Shown piece after piece: positions 21,677 to 29,190 of a DNA stretch of 64,000 nucleotides. This DNA comes from Candidatus Aenigmatarchaeota archaeon (GTDB taxonomy: Archaea > Aenigmatarchaeota > Aenigmatarchaeia > Aenigmatarchaeales > DAIDAN01), in NCBI GenBank assembly GCA_049303335.1, contig JBAQNA010000022.1, positions 1,135 to 65,134 on the forward strand, written 5' to 3'. The translations under genes were made by a program, and so were the position numbers. The notes beneath the pieces were generated by a model. It worked only from the letters and a program-made list of their open reading frames with translations. It searched no databases and was not told the origin of the DNA. Positions within the stretch are counted from its first letter, which is position 1. Each line of letters begins with the position of its first letter.

Positions 21677-23848
<2,172 letters not shown>

Positions 23849-24899: not shown

Positions 24900-27800
24900 T
24901 CAGGTCTGTGGGATAAGAATTGAAACAATAAGCCGTATGGCGGATGGCTTGGCTCTGAACAACGATGAAGGCCGCAGCAAACTGCGATAAGCACGGGGTA
25001 GGCGTATGCAGCCTTCGAACCCGTGATAGCCTAATGCGACTTCGCGCCTGCTTCGGCAGGCATTCGCGGAAGAGATTGCATCAAGCCTGCGAAAGTGAAT
25101 CCGCCGGATTAAAGCATTTAAGTAAGCGGAAGAAGAGAAAGAAAATCGATTCCGTTAGTAAGGGCGACTGAAAGCGGAACAGGACAAACCGAACCCGCCC
25201 GGAAACGGAGCGGGAATGTGGAGTTTGGACTCGGGCACTTCTTAACTTTCCAGCCCAAAGTTCCCTGGAATGGGACGCGACAAAGCGTGACAGCCGCGTA
25301 GGGGGACGGGAGAAAGAAGATTCCGGGTATCCAGAGTATCGTTCTTCGGATATAGAGCGAGAAGGCGGGTGCCATCAGTACCCAATCCTAAATATGTCCA
25401 GAGTCCGATAGCGCAATAGTAAGGTGACTGAAAGCTGAAAAGTACTCTTCACCGAGGGTGAAAAGAACCTGAAACCATACGGCGATAGTCTTTTATGGCA
25501 TGGAAGGTGCGCCTGCGAATGAACGCACCGCGAGGTGCAAGTAAGAGCGGGCGCTTACAGTGTCATAGAATTCGTTTCGAAACACGAGGCAGGGAGTTTG
25601 TTTCTGTGGCGAGGTTAATCCGGTTAGCGGAGAAGCCAAAGCGAAAGCAATAGGCGCGTAGCCGCGCAAGCGGCGTGGCGCGAGGTCTGAAAGGGCCTGC
25701 AGTCACAGGGACAAGACCCGAAACCGCTTGATCTAACCCTGGATAGGGCGAAGCGCGACGAAAGTTGCGTGGAGGCCCGGTACCGATGTTGGGCGCAACC
25801 ACTCGGGTGATTTGGGGTTAGGGGTGAAAAGCCAATCGAAAGCGGTAATATCTGGTTCCTTCCGAAATGCATATAGTGCAGCCTCATCCGAGGCAGCTGG
25901 CGGGGTAAAGCACTGATTGGGGAGTTAAGGAGCGAAAGTTCCGGCTTTCCTGTCAAACTCATAATCCGTTAGCGCCGTAGACGATGGGAGTGAGGGCACT
26001 GGGGTAAGCTCGGTGTCCGAAAGGGGAACAACCCAGCCTAAGGTTAAGGTCCCTAAATCTTAGCTAAGTCGCGAAAGTGGTGCTGGTTCAAAAACAGGAG
26101 GGGCGTAGGCTTAGAAGCAGCCATCGCATAATCAACGCGTAAAGCCCTTTTCTTTTTTGGTAACGAACTTGTAAAAAAGAAAAGCGCTTGCGGAAAAGAA
26201 AAACAAAAAAAAAGAAAAATCGGAAATAAAAACAAATAAAATCTTTTCCGGAAAGCGCGAAAGAAAAAGGCTCGCGAAACAGCGGACCTCTCGAGAATCA
26301 GTGCGCTGAAAATGGACGGGAGTAAGTTAAGTACCGATACCTTAGATATCGAAAGATATAGCGTAGGAAGGCGCTCCGTGCGGGCAGAAGCATCTGCGAG
26401 AGCGGGTGTGGACCGCATGGAGATGAAAATCCTGCCGGTAGTAGCAGCAACAGTTAGGTGAGAATCCTAATCGTCTAAGAGGCAAGGTTTTCCCGGCAAC
26501 GTTTTTCGGCCGGGAGTTAGTCGATCCTAAGTCCAATCTTAACTGAACTGGACGAAAGGGAAGCAGGTTAATACTCCTGCACCACGGGCATACGCGCGGT
26601 AACGCAAGTCCGAGCGCGGACGCTTCCGGACAAGCCGGCGCAAGTTAAGCGTTTAAATCCGGGGAGTTTCGTCATGAAGAGAACCGGATGAAGGCGTTAA
26701 CAGCTCTGCTGTATTGCGGAGTCCGGCCCATTTCAGGAGCCCATGAAAACGCGCGCGGAAAGAATTGCTCGTGTCCGTACCAAGAACCAACACAGGTGCC
26801 CTACGCTGAGAAAGCGAAGACGTCTCGGGATACACCATTTTAGGGAACTCGGCAAATTAGCTCCGTACCTTCGGTATAAGGAGTGCCTGGCCAGGGATTG
26901 GCCAGGTTTCAATAGCATGGGAGGAGCGACTGTTTAACAAAAACGCAGCCGACTGCTAAAGAGAAATCTTGCGTACAGTCGGTGAGGCCTGCCCAGTGCG
27001 AGTGTGTTAAAACCGGTTTCAACCGGTCCAAGCCCTCGTAAACGGCGGCGGTAACTCTGACCGTCTTAACGTCGGTCATTTTAGTCGCGAAAGCGGCGAT
27101 GAAAAAAATCAATCAATGCCGATTGAGATATAGGTAGCGTAAATGTTAGGTCCTAAATCCGAAATTATCAAATCGGGAATTTTCAGAATTGGAATTAACA
27201 GTCGGAGATGGACAGAGTTTTGCTCAACAGAAGCCACGAAAGCGGAAACGACTGTGTTATTAGAATCTCTTTTTTAAAAGAGACCTAACAGCGCATTCCC
27301 TTGTCGATTAATTGTCGACCCGCATGAATGGCTTAACGACTCCTCTACTGTCCCAAGATGGAACCCGGCGAACCTGCTATTGTGGTGAATAGGCCACAGA
27401 CCCTCAGAGGGAAGAGAAGACCCCGTGGAGCTCTGCGGCAGCCTGTCGTTGCTGTGCGGTCGCGGTCTCATAGCGTAGGCAGGAGCCGTTAAGCGTTGGA
27501 TTTCGGTCCAACGATAGGCGACAATGTAACACTGCCATCTCGTGACTGTATGGCTAACCTCGTTTTCGGGGAACACCGATTGGTAGGCCGCTCGGCTGGG
27601 GCGACGCGAACAAGTAGGAAATTATACCATTAAAATCCATTACCTGTTTGTCGCGCCTTATGTACGCCCTTGAGAGGAAAAAAGCTTTTTTCTTTTGAAA
27701 GAAAAAAGCTTTATCAAAAAAGAAACATTATACCTTATATCAAGGGCGCCCAAAGTTCTGCTCATTCCGGTCAGAAATCGGAAGTAGAGTGTAAGCGCAA

Positions 27801-29190
27801 AAGCAGGACTGACTGGATTCCGCACATCAAGGAATCCAGAGACGAAAGTCTGGGCTAACGATACGCCGAGTGTTCCTGATGGATTTCGGTGACTTCAGAA
27901 AAGCTACCCCGGGGATACGGGTTGGCGCGGAGCAAAGCGGGTCTTCTTGGAAAAAAATATTAATCTTAAATAGATTTATCGCTAGTTGTAAGATGGTGAA
28001 CAATATGTGTAAAGAATGCGGTGTAACTCTAAATGAATATGAAGAAGCATTAAGAACTATTGAAAGAGTAAAACCTAATTTATTGGAGATGAGCGATACT
28101 GCTCGCGCGGCAGATACAAATTTGCAATTATTGCAAAAACAACATATGAGTCATATCACAACAAAAGATAATTTTTCTTTTTTCACATTTTTCCAGGAAG
28201 GCCCGAAGCCCGTACCAACCCGCCAAATAACCGAGTCGTGGCGGGCGAGAGCTCCTAATTCTCACATCTCTAGATGTATTTCACAGAGAGATGGCAATGA
28301 GCAAATCGACTTTTTGAAATGGGTGATTTTCCGGCTGTTTAACGATGAGCGCATATTCGATTTAGCGAGTTAAACGAATTTTGAAGTAACTGATTTATTT
28401 TTAGAAGTTTTCAGATTTAGAAATACAAGAAATAAGGCAGTTATAGAGAAAATGATAGAAATAATTATGTTAGCCGGAATCCTATTTCAAGACGAGAACC
28501 CGCGCGTTGCTACCTCGCTGTCGGCTCCCCCTCTCCTGGTCGTGCAGTAAGCCCTTTTCTGTATCGAGCGTGCAAAAAGCGCTTGCGGAAAAGGTCCTGA
28601 ATGCGACCAAGGGTACAGGTGTTCACTGGTTAAAAGGGGACGTTAGCTGGGTTCAGAACGTCGTGATTCGTTGTGGGTTTTCATTTTACATGCGAAAGCA
28701 ATATTTCCGGTAAGGCGTGAGCATAATGACTTTACCGTCCCAAAATGAGCGGCACTAGCCGCGATGAATTTAGGAGTAGCTTATGAGTGCTGCCAATTTC
28801 CAGGCAACACGCTTTACCTTTTCAAACTTTCCTGGAATTCAGATGCGATTATCCACATCGAACGACATAGACAGTTCGGTCTTTATCTTCCGAGGGTGCA
28901 AAACCTGACCCGAAGGATGCCCAAGTACGAAAGGAACGTGCATCCGTGGCCACTGGTTGACCGGTTATCGTAATGGTAACGCCGGGCAGCTACGCCATAA
29001 TCGTTAACCGCTGAAGGCATGACAGCTGGAGCTAAATGTTCGGCTGTGCCGAACTAAGCGGGAAACGATCGGGAAAAATAGGTGGATGCTGACGGATAGA
29101 TCATCCGTTTAATGGGGCAGTGGTGTACGCACGAAGCCAAAAGCGACGTGTTCAGCCTTCTGCTCCCAATAGCGCAGTTTCAATTCTCTC
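24900..29190 (+). rRNA. 23S rRNA, about 4.3 kb (ends approximate), with multiple insertions
   Basis: Begins GGCGGATGGCTTGGCTC..GATGAAGG..GCGATAAGC. Conserved blocks recognised: GGAAAGACCCCGTGGAGCT, the CCCCGGGGATA region, GCTGGGTTCAGAACGTCGTGA and CGAACTAAGCGGGAAAC. Insertions at about 26140-26290, 27080-27300, 27660-27740 and 27935-28480. Confidence 0.8.
27993..28373 (+). CDS. ORF inside the 23S domain-V insertion (possible degenerate intron-encoded protein)
   Basis: A roughly 550-nt low-GC insert interrupts the 23S right after the conserved CCCCGGGGATA block. Its longest frame begins MVNNMCKECGVTLNEYEEALRT. No LAGLIDADG motif was recognised. Confidence 0.25.
   Translation: MVNNMCKECGVTLNEYEEALRTIERVKPNLLEMSDTARAADTNLQLLQKQHMSHITTKDNFSFFTFFQEGPKPVPTRQITESWRARAPNSHISRCISQRDGNEQIDFLKWVIFRLFNDERIFDLAS

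What the first reader, a model, noticed from the sequence alone, without database searches (positions are those of the whole stretch)
27935..28480. A roughly 550-nt low-GC insertion carrying an ORF in 23S domain V (peptidyl-transferase region)
The 23S is interrupted right after the conserved CCCCGGGGATA block, where rRNA introns are known to sit (23S domain V). The insert holds a roughly 127-aa frame (MVNNMCKECGVTLNEYEEALRT...). Known archaeal 23S introns encode LAGLIDADG homing endonucleases, but I see no LAGLIDADG motif here. This is either a degenerate or novel intron-encoded protein, or a non-coding expansion that happens to be open.
Basis: partly seen in the sequence, partly recalled or inferred. 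Interest (0 to 1): 0.6.

Follow-up and report, generated by a model that had tools for sequence, protein, structure and literature searches.

The report
Three archaeal introns, one spurious ORF
The "550-nt insert with an ORF" in this DPANN archaeon's 23S rRNA gene is really three separate archaeal-type introns split by 28-nt and 6-nt pieces of true rRNA, and the open reading frame runs across all of them, is not conserved in relatives and is almost certainly not a gene.

Summary
The interruption after CCCCGGGGAU(A) is real, but it is not one insert. Uninterrupted 23S genes of related Aenigmarchaeota show three inserts. I1 is 27917-28228 (312 nt, between U2449 and A2450, in the peptidyl-transferase loop). 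I2a is 28257-28304 (48 nt) and I2b is 28311-28498 (188 nt), both in helix 89. They are separated by a 28-nt exon and a 6-nt micro-exon (AUCGAC). Removing them reproduces a relative's uninterrupted sequence exactly.

Each insert can form a bulge-helix-bulge-type motif that puts the junctions between the 2nd and 3rd nucleotide of 3-nt bulges. The pairing is kept across 19 junction variants of I1 and 7 variants of I2b. The window's own I1 has a weakened central helix (2 of 4 pairs). Longer I1 relatives at the same site encode a LAGLIDADG homing endonuclease. No group I or II signal was found.

The 126-aa ORF (27993-28373) crosses I1, an exon, I2a, the micro-exon and part of I2b. Its only database relatives are itself and a frameshifted 55-aa call. 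Three relatives lack or break it, and its substitutions are not codon-like. Its openness is statistically unusual but unsupported by conservation.

Verdict: new members of a known kind (ORF-less archaeal rRNA introns), and a mis-annotated hypothetical protein.

The parts
27907..27916 (+). End of the upstream 23S exon, CCCCGGGGAU. The last nucleotide corresponds to E. coli U2449 by my own count from the known modified positions. GGGG (27911-27914) is the exon strand of the central helix of I1's junction motif.
   Evidence: cmscan alignment to RF02540; uninterrupted relatives; pairing register.
27917..28228 (+). Intron I1, 312 nt, GC 0.37, in the peptidyl-transferase central loop (site L2449). 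The predicted cuts are GGGGAU|A and ..CCAAAU|A. In the window alone the junction could shift by up to 3 nt because of an AUA repeat. L018-type copies narrow it to AU|A or AUA|.
   Evidence: Absent from L001, L007, L010, L011, L013 and L014. The fold is a long stem with z = -4.9. Family register. L018-type junctions.
27918..27950 (+). 5' strand of the conserved I1 core. CGGGUUGG (27918-27925) pairs with CCAACCCG (28215-28222). GGGUCUUCUUGG (27939-27950) pairs with CCAGGAAGGCCC (28193-28204).
   Evidence: Nearly identical in L005, L027 and L038 although their interiors differ.
28193..28228 (+). 3' strand of the I1 core, followed by CCAA (28223-28226). CCAA is the intron strand of the central helix and pairs with only 2 of the 4 exon G's. 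The 3' bulge is A28227, U28228 | A28229.
28229..28256 (+). 28-nt exon AACCGAGUCGUGGCGGGCGAGAGCUCCU (E. coli 2450-2477: A2450, A2451 and the 5' strand of helix 89). GCUC (28251-28254) pairs with intron GAGC (28299-28302).
   Evidence: cmscan with high posterior. Identical in 12 relatives except position 2453. Register.
28257..28304 (+). Intron I2a, a 48-nt hairpin mini-intron at the tip of helix 89 (after U2477). It has a canonical 3-4-3 bulge-helix-bulge: bulge C,U|A, helix GCUC/GAGC, bulge A,A|A. The junction is ambiguous by 1 nt (A).
   Evidence: Present in window, L004, L005, L013, L027, L035 and L038, and absent from L002 and all uninterrupted alleles. The first pair of the flanking helix changes A-U to G-C in L004 and L035.
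28305..28310 (+). 6-nt micro-exon AUCGAC (E. coli 2478-2483). A28305 is the third nucleotide of I2a's 3' bulge, UCG is the central helix of I2b, and AC starts I2b's 5' bulge.
   Evidence: Comparison with CUCCUAUCGACCCCGCGC in the uninterrupted relatives, and with L002, which has only I2b after UCGAC.
28311..28498 (+). Intron I2b, 188 nt, after C2483. The junction is unambiguous. The motif is bulge A,C|U; helix UCG (28306-28308) with CGA (28493-28495) plus an A.G mismatch; bulge A,A|C; and a 12-bp flanking helix, 28312-28323 with 28481-28492.
   Evidence: (85.7% of cells paired against 37-60% for slid registers).
28499..28524 (+). Downstream exon resumes: CCCGCGCGUUGCUACCUCGCUGUCGG (3' strand of helix 89 and the 2497-2509 region).
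   Evidence: The spliced product is an exact substring of L001.
27993..28373 (+). The 126-codon ORF (MVNNMCKECGV...). GenBank carries it from the second ATG as hypothetical protein WA139_03070. It runs through I1, the 28-nt exon, I2a, the micro-exon and the first 63 nt of I2b. I judge it spurious.
28338..28374 (+). K-turn-like motif inside I2b: C-stem UUUAAC/GUUAAA, bulge GAU, tandem G.A/A.G, then GC/GC. It contains the ORF's stop codon.
   Evidence: Read by eye from the sequences. Similar motifs occur in L004, L027/L038 and L035. Not tested statistically.

Best explanation
The interval holds three archaeal protein-spliced (bulge-helix-bulge, BHB-type) introns in domain V of the single 23S rRNA gene of a Candidatus Aenigmatarchaeota (DPANN) genome. 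I1 sits in the peptidyl-transferase loop between U2449 and A2450. I2a and I2b sit 28 nt further on, near the tip of helix 89, with only six exon nucleotides between them.

Inferred mechanism: in the pre-rRNA, the exon nucleotides next to each junction pair with the far end of the intron. This forms a 4-bp (or shortened) helix flanked by 3-nt bulges and closed by an intron-intron stem. The tRNA/rRNA splicing endonuclease EndA cuts after the second bulge nucleotide on each strand. The RtcB ligase then joins the exons and circularises the introns. The result is a peptidyl-transferase/helix 89 sequence identical to that of intron-free relatives.

I1 is an endonuclease-less derivative of a mobile intron family whose full-length members encode a LAGLIDADG_3 homing endonuclease. 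I2a is a minimal hairpin intron. I2b is an ORF-less remnant with a conserved structured core. The 126-aa ORF is an accidental open frame across introns and exons, called as a gene because rRNA annotation breaks down at the first intron.

Shown here: the insert boundaries, exact restoration of the rRNA, structure conservation, endonuclease-bearing homologues, and lack of ORF conservation. Inferred: cleavage by EndA, ligation, and circular introns.
For: 1. Two cmscan runs place rRNA model positions about 2541-2565 inside the 'insert'.

2. Five relatives have the uninterrupted sequence GGGGAUAAC[C/A/U]GAGUCGUGGCGGGCGAGAGCUCCUAU[C/U]GACCCCGCGC. Deleting 27917-28228, 28257-28304 and 28311-28498 gives a 74-nt string that is an exact substring of L001.

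3. The inserts vary independently among relatives. L006 has I1 only, L013 has I2a and I2b only, L002 has I1 and I2b, and several have none.

4. I1 family, 19 distinct junction constructs. The central helix (exon GGGG with intron CYYY) is 97% paired and the flanking helix is 86% paired. Overall 90.5% of cells are paired, against 47-72% for slid registers, and 0 of 500 shuffles reach the observed covariation.

5. L018-type copies lack the AUA repeat and force the junction to AU|A or AUA|, which agrees with the bulge rule.

6. I2b's junction is unambiguous and falls exactly between bulge nucleotides 2 and 3 on both strands. UCG/CGA is invariant and the 12-bp helix covaries.

7. I2a has four Watson-Crick pairs (GCUC/GAGC) in all 7 copies, with an A-U to G-C compensatory change next to the bulge.

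8. The L017 copy at the same site, with the same core, encodes a LAGLIDADG_3 protein (Pfam E = 1e-15). L021 and the partly recovered L012 carry near-identical ORFs that were not scanned separately.

9. There is no group I or II or other Rfam signal even at E <= 10.

10. ORF: the only hits among 5.8e9 clusters and 1.84e9 representatives are itself and a 55-aa call from L027. L027 has a +1 indel at 28106. L005 and L038 have unrelated I1 interiors. L005 has +1 indels in I2a and I2b. L027 and L038 have a different I2b interior. The 14 substitutions before the indel fall 3/7/4 on codon positions 1/2/3. A-to-G changes in a hairpin keep pairing as G.U. AlphaFold gives mean pLDDT 45.

11. The literature describes exactly these classes of archaeal rRNA intron: endonuclease-encoding, ORF-less remnant, and hairpins under about 50 nt that keep the BHB (PMC4496867). 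It also describes relaxed motifs accepted by broad-specificity EndAs, including DPANN enzymes (PMC5829648).
Against: The window's own I1 (shared with L005, L027 and L038) has CCAA where the family has CYYY. Its central helix is therefore only 2 bp, with a 6-nt 3' loop in the constrained fold. That is not a canonical substrate.

The unconstrained minimum-energy folds do not reproduce the bulges exactly. For I1 the values are -64.8 against -63.1 kcal/mol. For I2a plus I2b they are -78.8 against -72.5 kcal/mol, because I2a also pairs with the downstream exon.

No EndA or RtcB gene was seen among the ten window proteins scanned, and the rest of the genome is not available here. There are no RNA data, so splicing, ligation and circularisation are all inferred.

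The openness of the frame is statistically unusual.
Confidence: 0.85

Rival explanations
1. The ORF, or its N-terminal part inside I1, encodes a real, novel, lineage-specific intron protein. It would be translated from the pre-rRNA or from the excised intron.
For: An ATG ORF of 126 codons or more is rare in shuffles of this AT-rich region: 10 of 20000 forward, 58 of 20000 on both strands. All of I1 is stop-free in this frame, which happens in 33 of 50000 shuffles. The first 34 residues from MCKECG are about 76% identical to the L027 ORF (P0002).
Against: The frame passes through 34 nt of mature rRNA and three splice junctions. No relative keeps it: L027 is frameshifted at 28106, L005 and L038 have different I1 interiors, L005 has frameshifts in I2a and I2b, and L027 and L038 have a different I2b interior. 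Substitutions fall 3/7/4 on codon positions 1/2/3, which is not the third-position excess expected of coding sequence. There is no family, PDB or distant HMMER relative, and the structure prediction is low-confidence. The similarity to P0002 is what about 87% nucleotide identity gives in any frame. The first-stage reader selects for rare open frames, so a chance event at about the 1e-3 level is not surprising.
Confidence: 0.05
2. The inserts are expansion segments that stay in the mature 23S rRNA and are not spliced.
For: DPANN and CPR rRNA genes carry many insertions. This operon has at least six other LSU inserts and about 500 extra nt in the SSU. Some of these are shared by most relatives and could be true expansions.
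Against: I1 lies between U2449 and A2450 in the core of the peptidyl-transferase centre, where a 312-nt insert is not structurally plausible (inference from ribosome structure knowledge). The inserts are present or absent among close relatives with nucleotide-exact restoration. The junctions carry conserved, covarying BHB-type structure. Homologues at the same site carry a homing endonuclease gene. The interiors are swapped freely between near-identical hosts.
Confidence: 0.03
3. One or more of the inserts are self-splicing group I (or group II) introns, as are now known in the LSU genes of other DPANN archaea.
For: Group I introns occur in DPANN LSU rRNA at positions 1923, 1931, 2500 and 2593 (PMC6125680). 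L2449 is a classic group I site in organelles and protists (the link to I-SceI is from my own knowledge). I1 at 312 nt is of group I size.
Against: No Intron_gpI or group II hit appears at gathering threshold, at E <= 0.01, at E <= 1, or at E <= 10 on the isolated 611 nt. The introns end in U, A and A rather than the terminal G of group I introns, and I2b follows a C rather than a U (sequence). At 48 nt, I2a is far too small to be a ribozyme.
Confidence: 0.03
4. The inserts are cut out without religation, as with bacterial intervening sequences, leaving a fragmented 23S rRNA.
For: Each insert is closed by a long stem, as in RNase III-processed intervening sequences. Fragmented rRNAs exist in several lineages (my own knowledge).
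Against: Fragmentation would leave a free 28-nt piece and a free 6-nt piece in the catalytic core. A 6-nt fragment could hardly be retained (inference). The junction geometry matches the EndA rule rather than staggered cuts in a stem. EndA products are normally ligated by RtcB (PMC7714728, PMC4496867).
Confidence: 0.04

Closest known systems
Archaeal BHB introns of rRNA genes in Thermoproteales and Desulfurococcales (for example the Desulfurococcus mobilis 23S intron with I-DmoI, and Pyrobaculum and Thermoproteus 16S/23S introns; classes listed in PMC4496867)
   Same: They are protein-spliced introns in highly conserved rRNA sites. A bulge-helix-bulge forms between exon and intron, closed by an intron stem. 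Families mix LAGLIDADG-encoding copies, ORF-less remnants and hairpin introns under about 50 nt. Presence and absence vary between close relatives.
   Different: The host here is a mesophile-type, low-GC DPANN (Aenigmarchaeota) genome, not a crenarchaeal hyperthermophile. Three introns are packed into 35 nt of mature sequence, with a 6-nt micro-exon shared by two adjacent motifs. The window's I1 has a shortened central helix. No splicing data exist.
Group I introns at LSU position L2449 (yeast mitochondrial omega intron with I-SceI, from my own knowledge; myxomycete L2449 introns)
   Same: They use the same insertion site in GGGAU|AACAG of the peptidyl-transferase loop, and they are associated with LAGLIDADG endonucleases.
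   Different: Those are self-splicing ribozymes. I1 has no group I core, has no terminal G, and carries a BHB-type junction.
Group I introns in DPANN LSU rRNA genes (Nawrocki, Jones and Eddy 2018, PMC6125680)
   Same: They are introns in the LSU rRNA of uncultivated DPANN archaea, found in metagenome assemblies. [quoted passage not shown]
   Different: Those lie at 1923, 1931, 2500 and 2593 and match the Rfam group I models. The three here lie at 2449, 2477 and 2483 and do not.
Insertion sequences in rRNA genes of CPR bacteria (PMC11270868)
   Same: Small-genome, episymbiont-type lineages whose rRNA genes are riddled with insertions. Many carry LAGLIDADG genes and many are ORF-less. They break automated rRNA annotation.
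   Different: The CPR elements are bacterial and mostly group I or II-like. There is no EndA/BHB pathway.
Multiple-intron and non-canonical-intron pre-tRNAs with relaxed BHB (HBh', hBH, BHL) motifs (PMC5829648)
   Same: Relaxed motifs in which only one bulge is fully bracketed by helices, cut by broad-specificity EndA. Several introns can occur in one short RNA.
   Different: The substrate here is rRNA, and intron sizes reach 312 nt.

Membership tests
Archaeal BHB (EndA-dependent) intron | Removal restores an uninterrupted, conserved host RNA sequence. | tested here: met
   The in-silico spliced 74-mer is an exact substring of the uninterrupted L001. Five relatives lack all three inserts.
Archaeal BHB (EndA-dependent) intron | Two 3-nt bulges separated by a 4-bp helix at the exon-intron junctions, with the cuts inside the bulges (relaxed HBh'/hBH forms allowed): I2a. 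| tested here: met
   GCUC/GAGC gives 4 Watson-Crick pairs, with bulges CU|A and AA|A and a flanking helix of 3-6 bp, in all 7 copies.
Archaeal BHB (EndA-dependent) intron | The same motif: I2b. | tested here: met
   UCG/CGA is invariant with one A.G or A.A mismatch. Bulges are AC|N and AA|C. The 12-bp helix covaries. The unambiguous junction falls exactly at bulge position 2|3. This is the relaxed form, with a 3-bp central helix.
Archaeal BHB (EndA-dependent) intron | The same motif: I1. | tested here: inconclusive
   The family as a whole meets it: GGGG/CYYY is 97% paired and the bulges are AU|A. The window-type copy has CCAA, so only 2 of 4 pairs form. A constrained fold with a 2-bp helix and a 6-nt 3' loop lies 1.7 kcal/mol above the MFE.
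Archaeal BHB (EndA-dependent) intron | Cleavage by EndA, ligation by RtcB and a circular intron in vivo. | not testable with these tools
   No RNA data. EndA and RtcB were not among the ten window proteins scanned. The rest of the genome was not available.
Group I intron | Conserved catalytic core (match to Rfam Intron_gpI), a U at the end of the 5' exon and a G at the end of the intron. | tested here: not met
   No hit at any threshold up to E = 10. The introns end in U, A and A, and I2b follows a C.
LAGLIDADG homing endonuclease (for the ORF) | One or two LAGLIDADG domains detectable by profile. | tested here: not met
   Pfam at E <= 10 gives only two sub-threshold coiled-coil-like hits. NCBIfam and PDB give none. 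tblastn with the L017 endonuclease finds no remnant in 27900-28520. The L017 copy of I1 does encode one.
Conserved protein-coding gene (for the ORF) | The reading frame is kept in homologous loci, substitutions concentrate at third codon positions, and homologues exist. | tested here: not met
rRNA expansion segment | Retained in the mature rRNA at a tolerated, peripheral site, and vertically inherited. | not testable with these tools
   Retention cannot be tested without RNA data. The site (2449/2450, in the core) and the patchy distribution argue against it.

The most novel reading that the evidence does not exclude
I1 is exactly 312 nt (104 codons) and has no stop codon in the ORF's frame, across the circularisation junction included (33 of 50000 shuffles do as well). 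If EndA and RtcB release it as a circle, the window's copy would be an endless ORF with internal ATGs. That could support rolling-circle translation of a small repeated, lineage-specific peptide (MCKECGV...NEYEEA.RTIE.VKPNL). A stop-containing 55-aa version would exist in L027.
Probability: 0.03. Interest if true: 0.75.

Novelty: new member of a known kind. Interest (0 to 1): 0.3.

Why it matters
Three practical and biological points follow.

1. It removes a false gene. GenBank's hypothetical protein WA139_03070 is rRNA intron and exon sequence. It also shows how the first intron makes covariance-model annotation end the 23S 1.2 kb too early: the global hit stopped at 27968.

2. It documents ORF-less and endonuclease-bearing BHB-type introns in Aenigmarchaeota 23S genes, at the catalytic heart of the ribosome. 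The sites are 2449, 2477 and 2483. Two adjacent splice motifs share a 6-nt micro-exon, which is an unusually tight packing and places strong demands on accurate cutting and ligation.

3. The family of 22 I1 copies (19 distinct junction constructs) gives a ready comparative data set for relaxed BHB recognition by DPANN splicing endonucleases, and for the homing endonuclease gain and loss cycle.

None of this changes the known picture of archaeal introns.

Tried and rejected
- Treating the region as one insert. Rejected after the cmscan of the downstream half and the uninterrupted relatives.

- An alternative reading in which the first copy of a helix-89-like string (GGGGAUACGGGUUGGCGCGGAGCAAAG, 27911-27937) is the real rRNA. 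Rejected because it would delete A2451, and the relatives show the second copy is the exon.

- A flipped BHB for the window's I1, with the central helix formed by intron CGG and exon-2 CCG. It is 14 kcal/mol worse than the other layout and impossible in the A2453 family, so it was dropped.

- Pfam, NCBIfam, PDB sequence search, the word-indexed 5.8e9-cluster search and the full HMMER search of 1.84e9 representatives for the ORF. They found only the ORF itself plus the L027 call.

- AlphaFold on the single sequence gave pLDDT 45. It was uninformative, so no fold search was run.

- tblastn for remnants of the LAGLIDADG gene, or of the other I1-borne ORFs (L004, L005, L035), in the window's inserts found none.

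- Rfam at permissive thresholds for group I or II introns or small RNAs in the inserts gave only chance-level hits. An sR44 C/D-box match had E = 0.58.

- Looking for EndA or RtcB among ten window proteins found none, only ordinary archaeal housekeeping genes.

- The L005 I1 interior could not be read fully because the collection masks part of it with N.
Full report
**Observation.** The window carries an archaeal rRNA operon: SSU at 21677-23664 and LSU from 24916. The LSU match is interrupted directly after CCCCGGGGAUA (27907-27917). The sequence that follows is AT-rich. It contains an ATG ORF of 126 codons, 27993-28373 on the + strand, embedded in a 167-codon stop-free stretch.

The global covariance-model alignment is misleading here. 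It forces the 3' end of the LSU model into 27918-27968. When the downstream part is searched alone, the rest of the 23S (model positions 2146-2973) is found at 28190-29175.

**Organism and relatives.** The ORF's only hit among 5.8 billion protein clusters is itself. NCBI lists it as 'hypothetical protein WA139_03070, Candidatus Aenigmatarchaeota archaeon'. Neighbouring genes are ordinary archaeal housekeeping genes: ABCE1-like, ArgRS, primase small subunit, dCTP deaminase.

A scan of GTDB species genomes with the helix 89 string returned 12 archaeal 23S loci, seven of them labelled Aenigmatarchaeota. Five of them (L001, L007, L010, L011, L014) read without interruption: GCUACCCCGGGG AUAAC[C/A/U]GAGUCGUGGCGGGCGAGAGCUCCUA U[C/U]GAC CCCGCGCGUUGCUACCUCG. 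Against this reference the window has three inserts:

- I1, 27917-28228, 312 nt.
- I2a, 28257-28304, 48 nt.
- I2b, 28311-28498, 188 nt.

They are separated by a 28-nt exon (28229-28256) and a 6-nt micro-exon, AUCGAC (28305-28310). Deleting the three inserts gives a 74-nt string that is an exact substring of L001. In E. coli numbering the sites are 2449/2450, 2477/2478 and 2483/2484. I counted these myself, anchored on the known modified positions m2G2445, D2449, Psi2457, Cm2498 and m2A2503.

**Distribution.** The inserts vary independently among relatives:

- L006 has only I1 (151 nt).
- L013 has only I2a and I2b.
- L002 has I1 (292 nt) and a 62-nt I2b but no I2a.
- L004 and L035 have all three.
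- L005, the closest relative (91-99% identical in the exons), has all three.

A metagenome scan with exon-1 plus AUAYGG gave 27 more loci. Together with the genome loci these give 22 distinct I1 copies of 110-643 nt with both ends recovered.

**Junction structure.** I tested the archaeal bulge-helix-bulge rule: a 4-bp helix flanked by two 3-nt bulges (definition in PMC7714728 and PMC5829648). Cleavage after the second bulge nucleotide is from my own knowledge of pre-tRNA splicing.

*I1 family.* The exon GGGG pairs with the last four intron nucleotides: CUUC, CUCU, CCUC or CCCU. The bulges are A,U|A on both strands. An intron-intron helix starts directly after the 5' bulge. On 19 distinct junction constructs:

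- The central helix is 97% paired and the flanking helix 86%.
- Overall 90.5% of cells pair, against 47-72% when the partner is slid by 1-3 nt.
- Four pairs show double-sided changes.
- 0 of 500 shuffles reach the observed covariation.

Copies of the L018 type read ...CCUC AAAACAGAG, without the AUA repeat. This restricts the junction to AU|A or AUA|, in agreement with the rule.

*The window-type I1.* This type (window, L005, L027, L038) is the exception. It ends in CCAA, so only two of the four central pairs form. Its flanking helix is a perfect 8 bp (CGGGUUGG/CCAACCCG), and it co-occurs with C at position 2453. A fold constrained to this layout is -63.1 kcal/mol against an MFE of -64.8. A flipped layout is -50.7. 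The whole intron folds as a long stem with z = -4.9.

*I2a.* Exon GCUC pairs with intron GAGC, four Watson-Crick pairs in all seven copies. The bulges are C,U|A and A,A|A. The first pair of the flanking helix changes from A-U to G-C in L004 and L035. It is a canonical 3-4-3 motif on a 38-49-nt hairpin.

*I2b.* The junction is unambiguous from comparison with the uninterrupted alleles, and it falls exactly between bulge nucleotides 2 and 3 on both strands (A,C|U and A,A|C). UCG/CGA is invariant, with one mismatch at the outer position. A 12-bp helix follows. Overall 85.7% of cells pair against 37-60% when slid, and three pairs show double-sided changes.

*Tandem arrangement.* The two helix 89 motifs are adjacent and share the 6-nt micro-exon. 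Its A closes I2a's 3' bulge, UCG is I2b's central helix, and AC opens I2b's 5' bulge. A fold enforcing both at once is feasible at -72.5 kcal/mol. The MFE of -78.8 prefers an alternative pairing of I2a with the downstream exon.

**Mobility.** The L017 copy of I1 (643 nt), at the same site and with the same core, encodes a LAGLIDADG_3 protein (Pfam E = 1.1e-15, above the curated cut-off). L021 (637 nt) and the partly recovered L012 copy carry near-identical ORFs containing the GLFDAEGS motif; I did not scan these two separately. The window's I1 contains no remnant of it.

Among the four window-type copies the cores are nearly identical, but the interiors are unrelated in L005 and L038 and homologous only in L027. 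This pattern, with a conserved splice core and an exchangeable interior, is what the homing endonuclease gain-loss cycle predicts. It matches the published classes of archaeal rRNA introns: endonuclease-encoding, ORF-less remnant, and hairpins under about 50 nt that keep the BHB (PMC4496867).

**Other intron types.** No group I or II or any other Rfam family matches the inserts at gathering threshold, at E <= 0.01, at E <= 1, or at E <= 10 on the isolated 611 nt. This matters because group I introns are known in DPANN LSU genes, at 1923, 1931, 2500 and 2593 (PMC6125680). The intron ends (U, A, A) and the C before I2b also do not fit group I.

**The ORF.** It starts in the loop of I1. It reads through the 3' core of I1, the 28-nt exon (residues ...TRQITESWRARAPN...), I2a, the micro-exon and 63 nt of I2b. 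It stops inside a conserved stem of I2b. The evidence against it is as follows.

- It matches no Pfam, NCBIfam or PDB entry.
- A full HMMER search of 1.84 billion representatives finds only itself and a 55-aa call (P0002). That call is the L027 version of the I1 interior.
- L027 has a +1 indel at 28106 that changes the frame and ends the ORF after 55 residues.
- Of the 14 substitutions before that indel, 3, 7 and 4 fall on codon positions 1, 2 and 3. That is the opposite of a coding pattern.
- Two A-to-G changes in the UUUGCAA hairpin keep pairing as G.U.
- L005 and L038 lack this interior. L005 has +1 indels in I2a and I2b. L027 and L038 have a different I2b interior. None of the three relatives has an ORF equivalent to the 126-aa frame.
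- AlphaFold on the single sequence gives mean pLDDT 45. This is uninformative, but it gives no support.

Against this stands one statistic. An ORF this long is rare in shuffles (10 of 20000 forward, 58 of 20000 on both strands). I1 as a circle has a stop-free frame, which occurs in 33 of 50000 shuffles. Because the first-stage reader picks out open frames, a chance event at about 1e-3 is an acceptable explanation. I keep the circular endless ORF only as a low-probability curiosity.

**Mechanism, with status.**

- Shown: the boundaries, exact restoration of the rRNA, conserved and covarying junction structure, endonuclease-bearing homologues, absence of ribozyme signatures, and non-conservation of the ORF.
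- Inferred from the established archaeal pathway (PMC7714728, PMC4496867, PMC5829648): EndA cuts at the bulges, RtcB ligates the exons and circularises the introns. A broad-specificity EndA of the kind described for DPANN lineages is needed for the relaxed motifs.
- Inferred from ribosome structure: a 312-nt insert between U2449 and A2450 cannot stay in a working peptidyl-transferase centre. A free 6-nt fragment could not be kept without ligation. This argues against retained expansion segments and against IVS-like fragmentation.

**Verdict.** This is a cluster of three BHB-type introns, which are new members of a well-known kind, in an Aenigmarchaeota 23S gene. The ORF is an annotation artefact. 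The points of modest interest are the packing of three introns into 35 nt of mature sequence at the catalytic centre, the 6-nt micro-exon shared by two splice motifs, and the degenerate central helix of the window's I1.

Noticed in passing
window 28518 (within ACCUCGCUGUCGG, 28512-28524); same position in the archaeal loci recovered downstream of the inserts (L001-L041): The 23S genes of this window and of the related archaeal loci recovered (most labelled Aenigmatarchaeota) have C where E. coli and the Rfam archaeal consensus have A2503. That is the near-universal, RlmN/Cfr-methylated adenine at the entrance of the exit tunnel. The change is shared by all of them, not an error of this contig.
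   Followed up: partly
window 28232 (position 2453); L001, L010, L023 and others: Position 2453 next to the peptidyl-transferase A2451 varies within the group. It is C in the window-type loci and L001, U in L010 and L023, and A elsewhere. C2453 co-occurs with the I1 variant that has the weakened central helix, and it lets exon-2 CCG pair with exon-1 CGG in the constrained fold.
   Followed up: partly
window 28338-28374 (inside I2b): A K-turn-like motif: C-stem UUUAAC/GUUAAA, 3-nt bulge GAU, tandem G.A/A.G, then GC/GC. Equivalents occur in the otherwise different I2b interiors of L004, L027/L038 and L035. It may be an L7Ae-binding element. I read it by eye only.
   Followed up: no
window 28284-28299 and 28505-28520: The 3' half of mini-intron I2a (CAGAGAGAUGGCAAUG) is complementary to the downstream exon CGUUGCUACCUCGCUG (14 of 16 pairs). 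The core GCAAYG/CGUUGC complementarity is kept in all four I2a sequence types. The MFE of the region prefers this pairing to the double-BHB fold. The meaning is unknown. It could be an alternative pre-rRNA conformer, or a trace of the intron's origin.
   Followed up: partly
window about 27068-27285, 27600-27740, 28548-28602, 28667-28869, about 29020; SSU 21677-23664: The same operon has at least six more LSU inserts: 218 nt, 59 and 61 nt, 55 nt, about 204 nt directly after GAACGUCGUGA (the L2593 group I/I-CreI-type site), and 36 nt. The SSU has about 500 extra nt. Most relatives also carry 170-370 nt at the 28667 site. None matched a group I model. I did not analyse them for BHB motifs.
   Followed up: no
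L005 (JAVHRC010000112.1), locus 6392-5666, 3843-2680 and 1281-646: The closest relative has three further large inserts (about 726, 1163 and 635 nt) at 23S positions where the window has none. So intron content differs strongly even between genomes whose exons are 91-99% identical.
   Followed up: no
window 24916-27968 against the true end at about 29175: The whole-window Rfam hit reports a 'complete' LSU ending at 27968, because the global alignment squeezes the last 440 model positions into the start of I1. Automated annotation would truncate the 23S by about 1.2 kb. This probably explains why the ORF was called as a protein in GenBank.
   Followed up: yes
L004 (I1 interior), L035 (I1 interior), L036: Other I1 copies carry unrelated ORFs of 77-109 aa with no Pfam match. 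For example, L004 has MAVELQSEKYSLDELDQ... and L035 has a lysine-rich 109-aa frame. Whether any is a real intron-borne gene is untested.
   Followed up: partly
L016 (OBEQ010496919.1): A different insert at the same GGGGAUA| site begins AUAUGGAAUGUGUCC. It carries an ORF whose sequence (...GTILGDGFLQK...) looks by eye like a LAGLIDADG endonuclease. It is possibly a group I-type intron in another lineage. I did not analyse it or scan it against Pfam.
   Followed up: no
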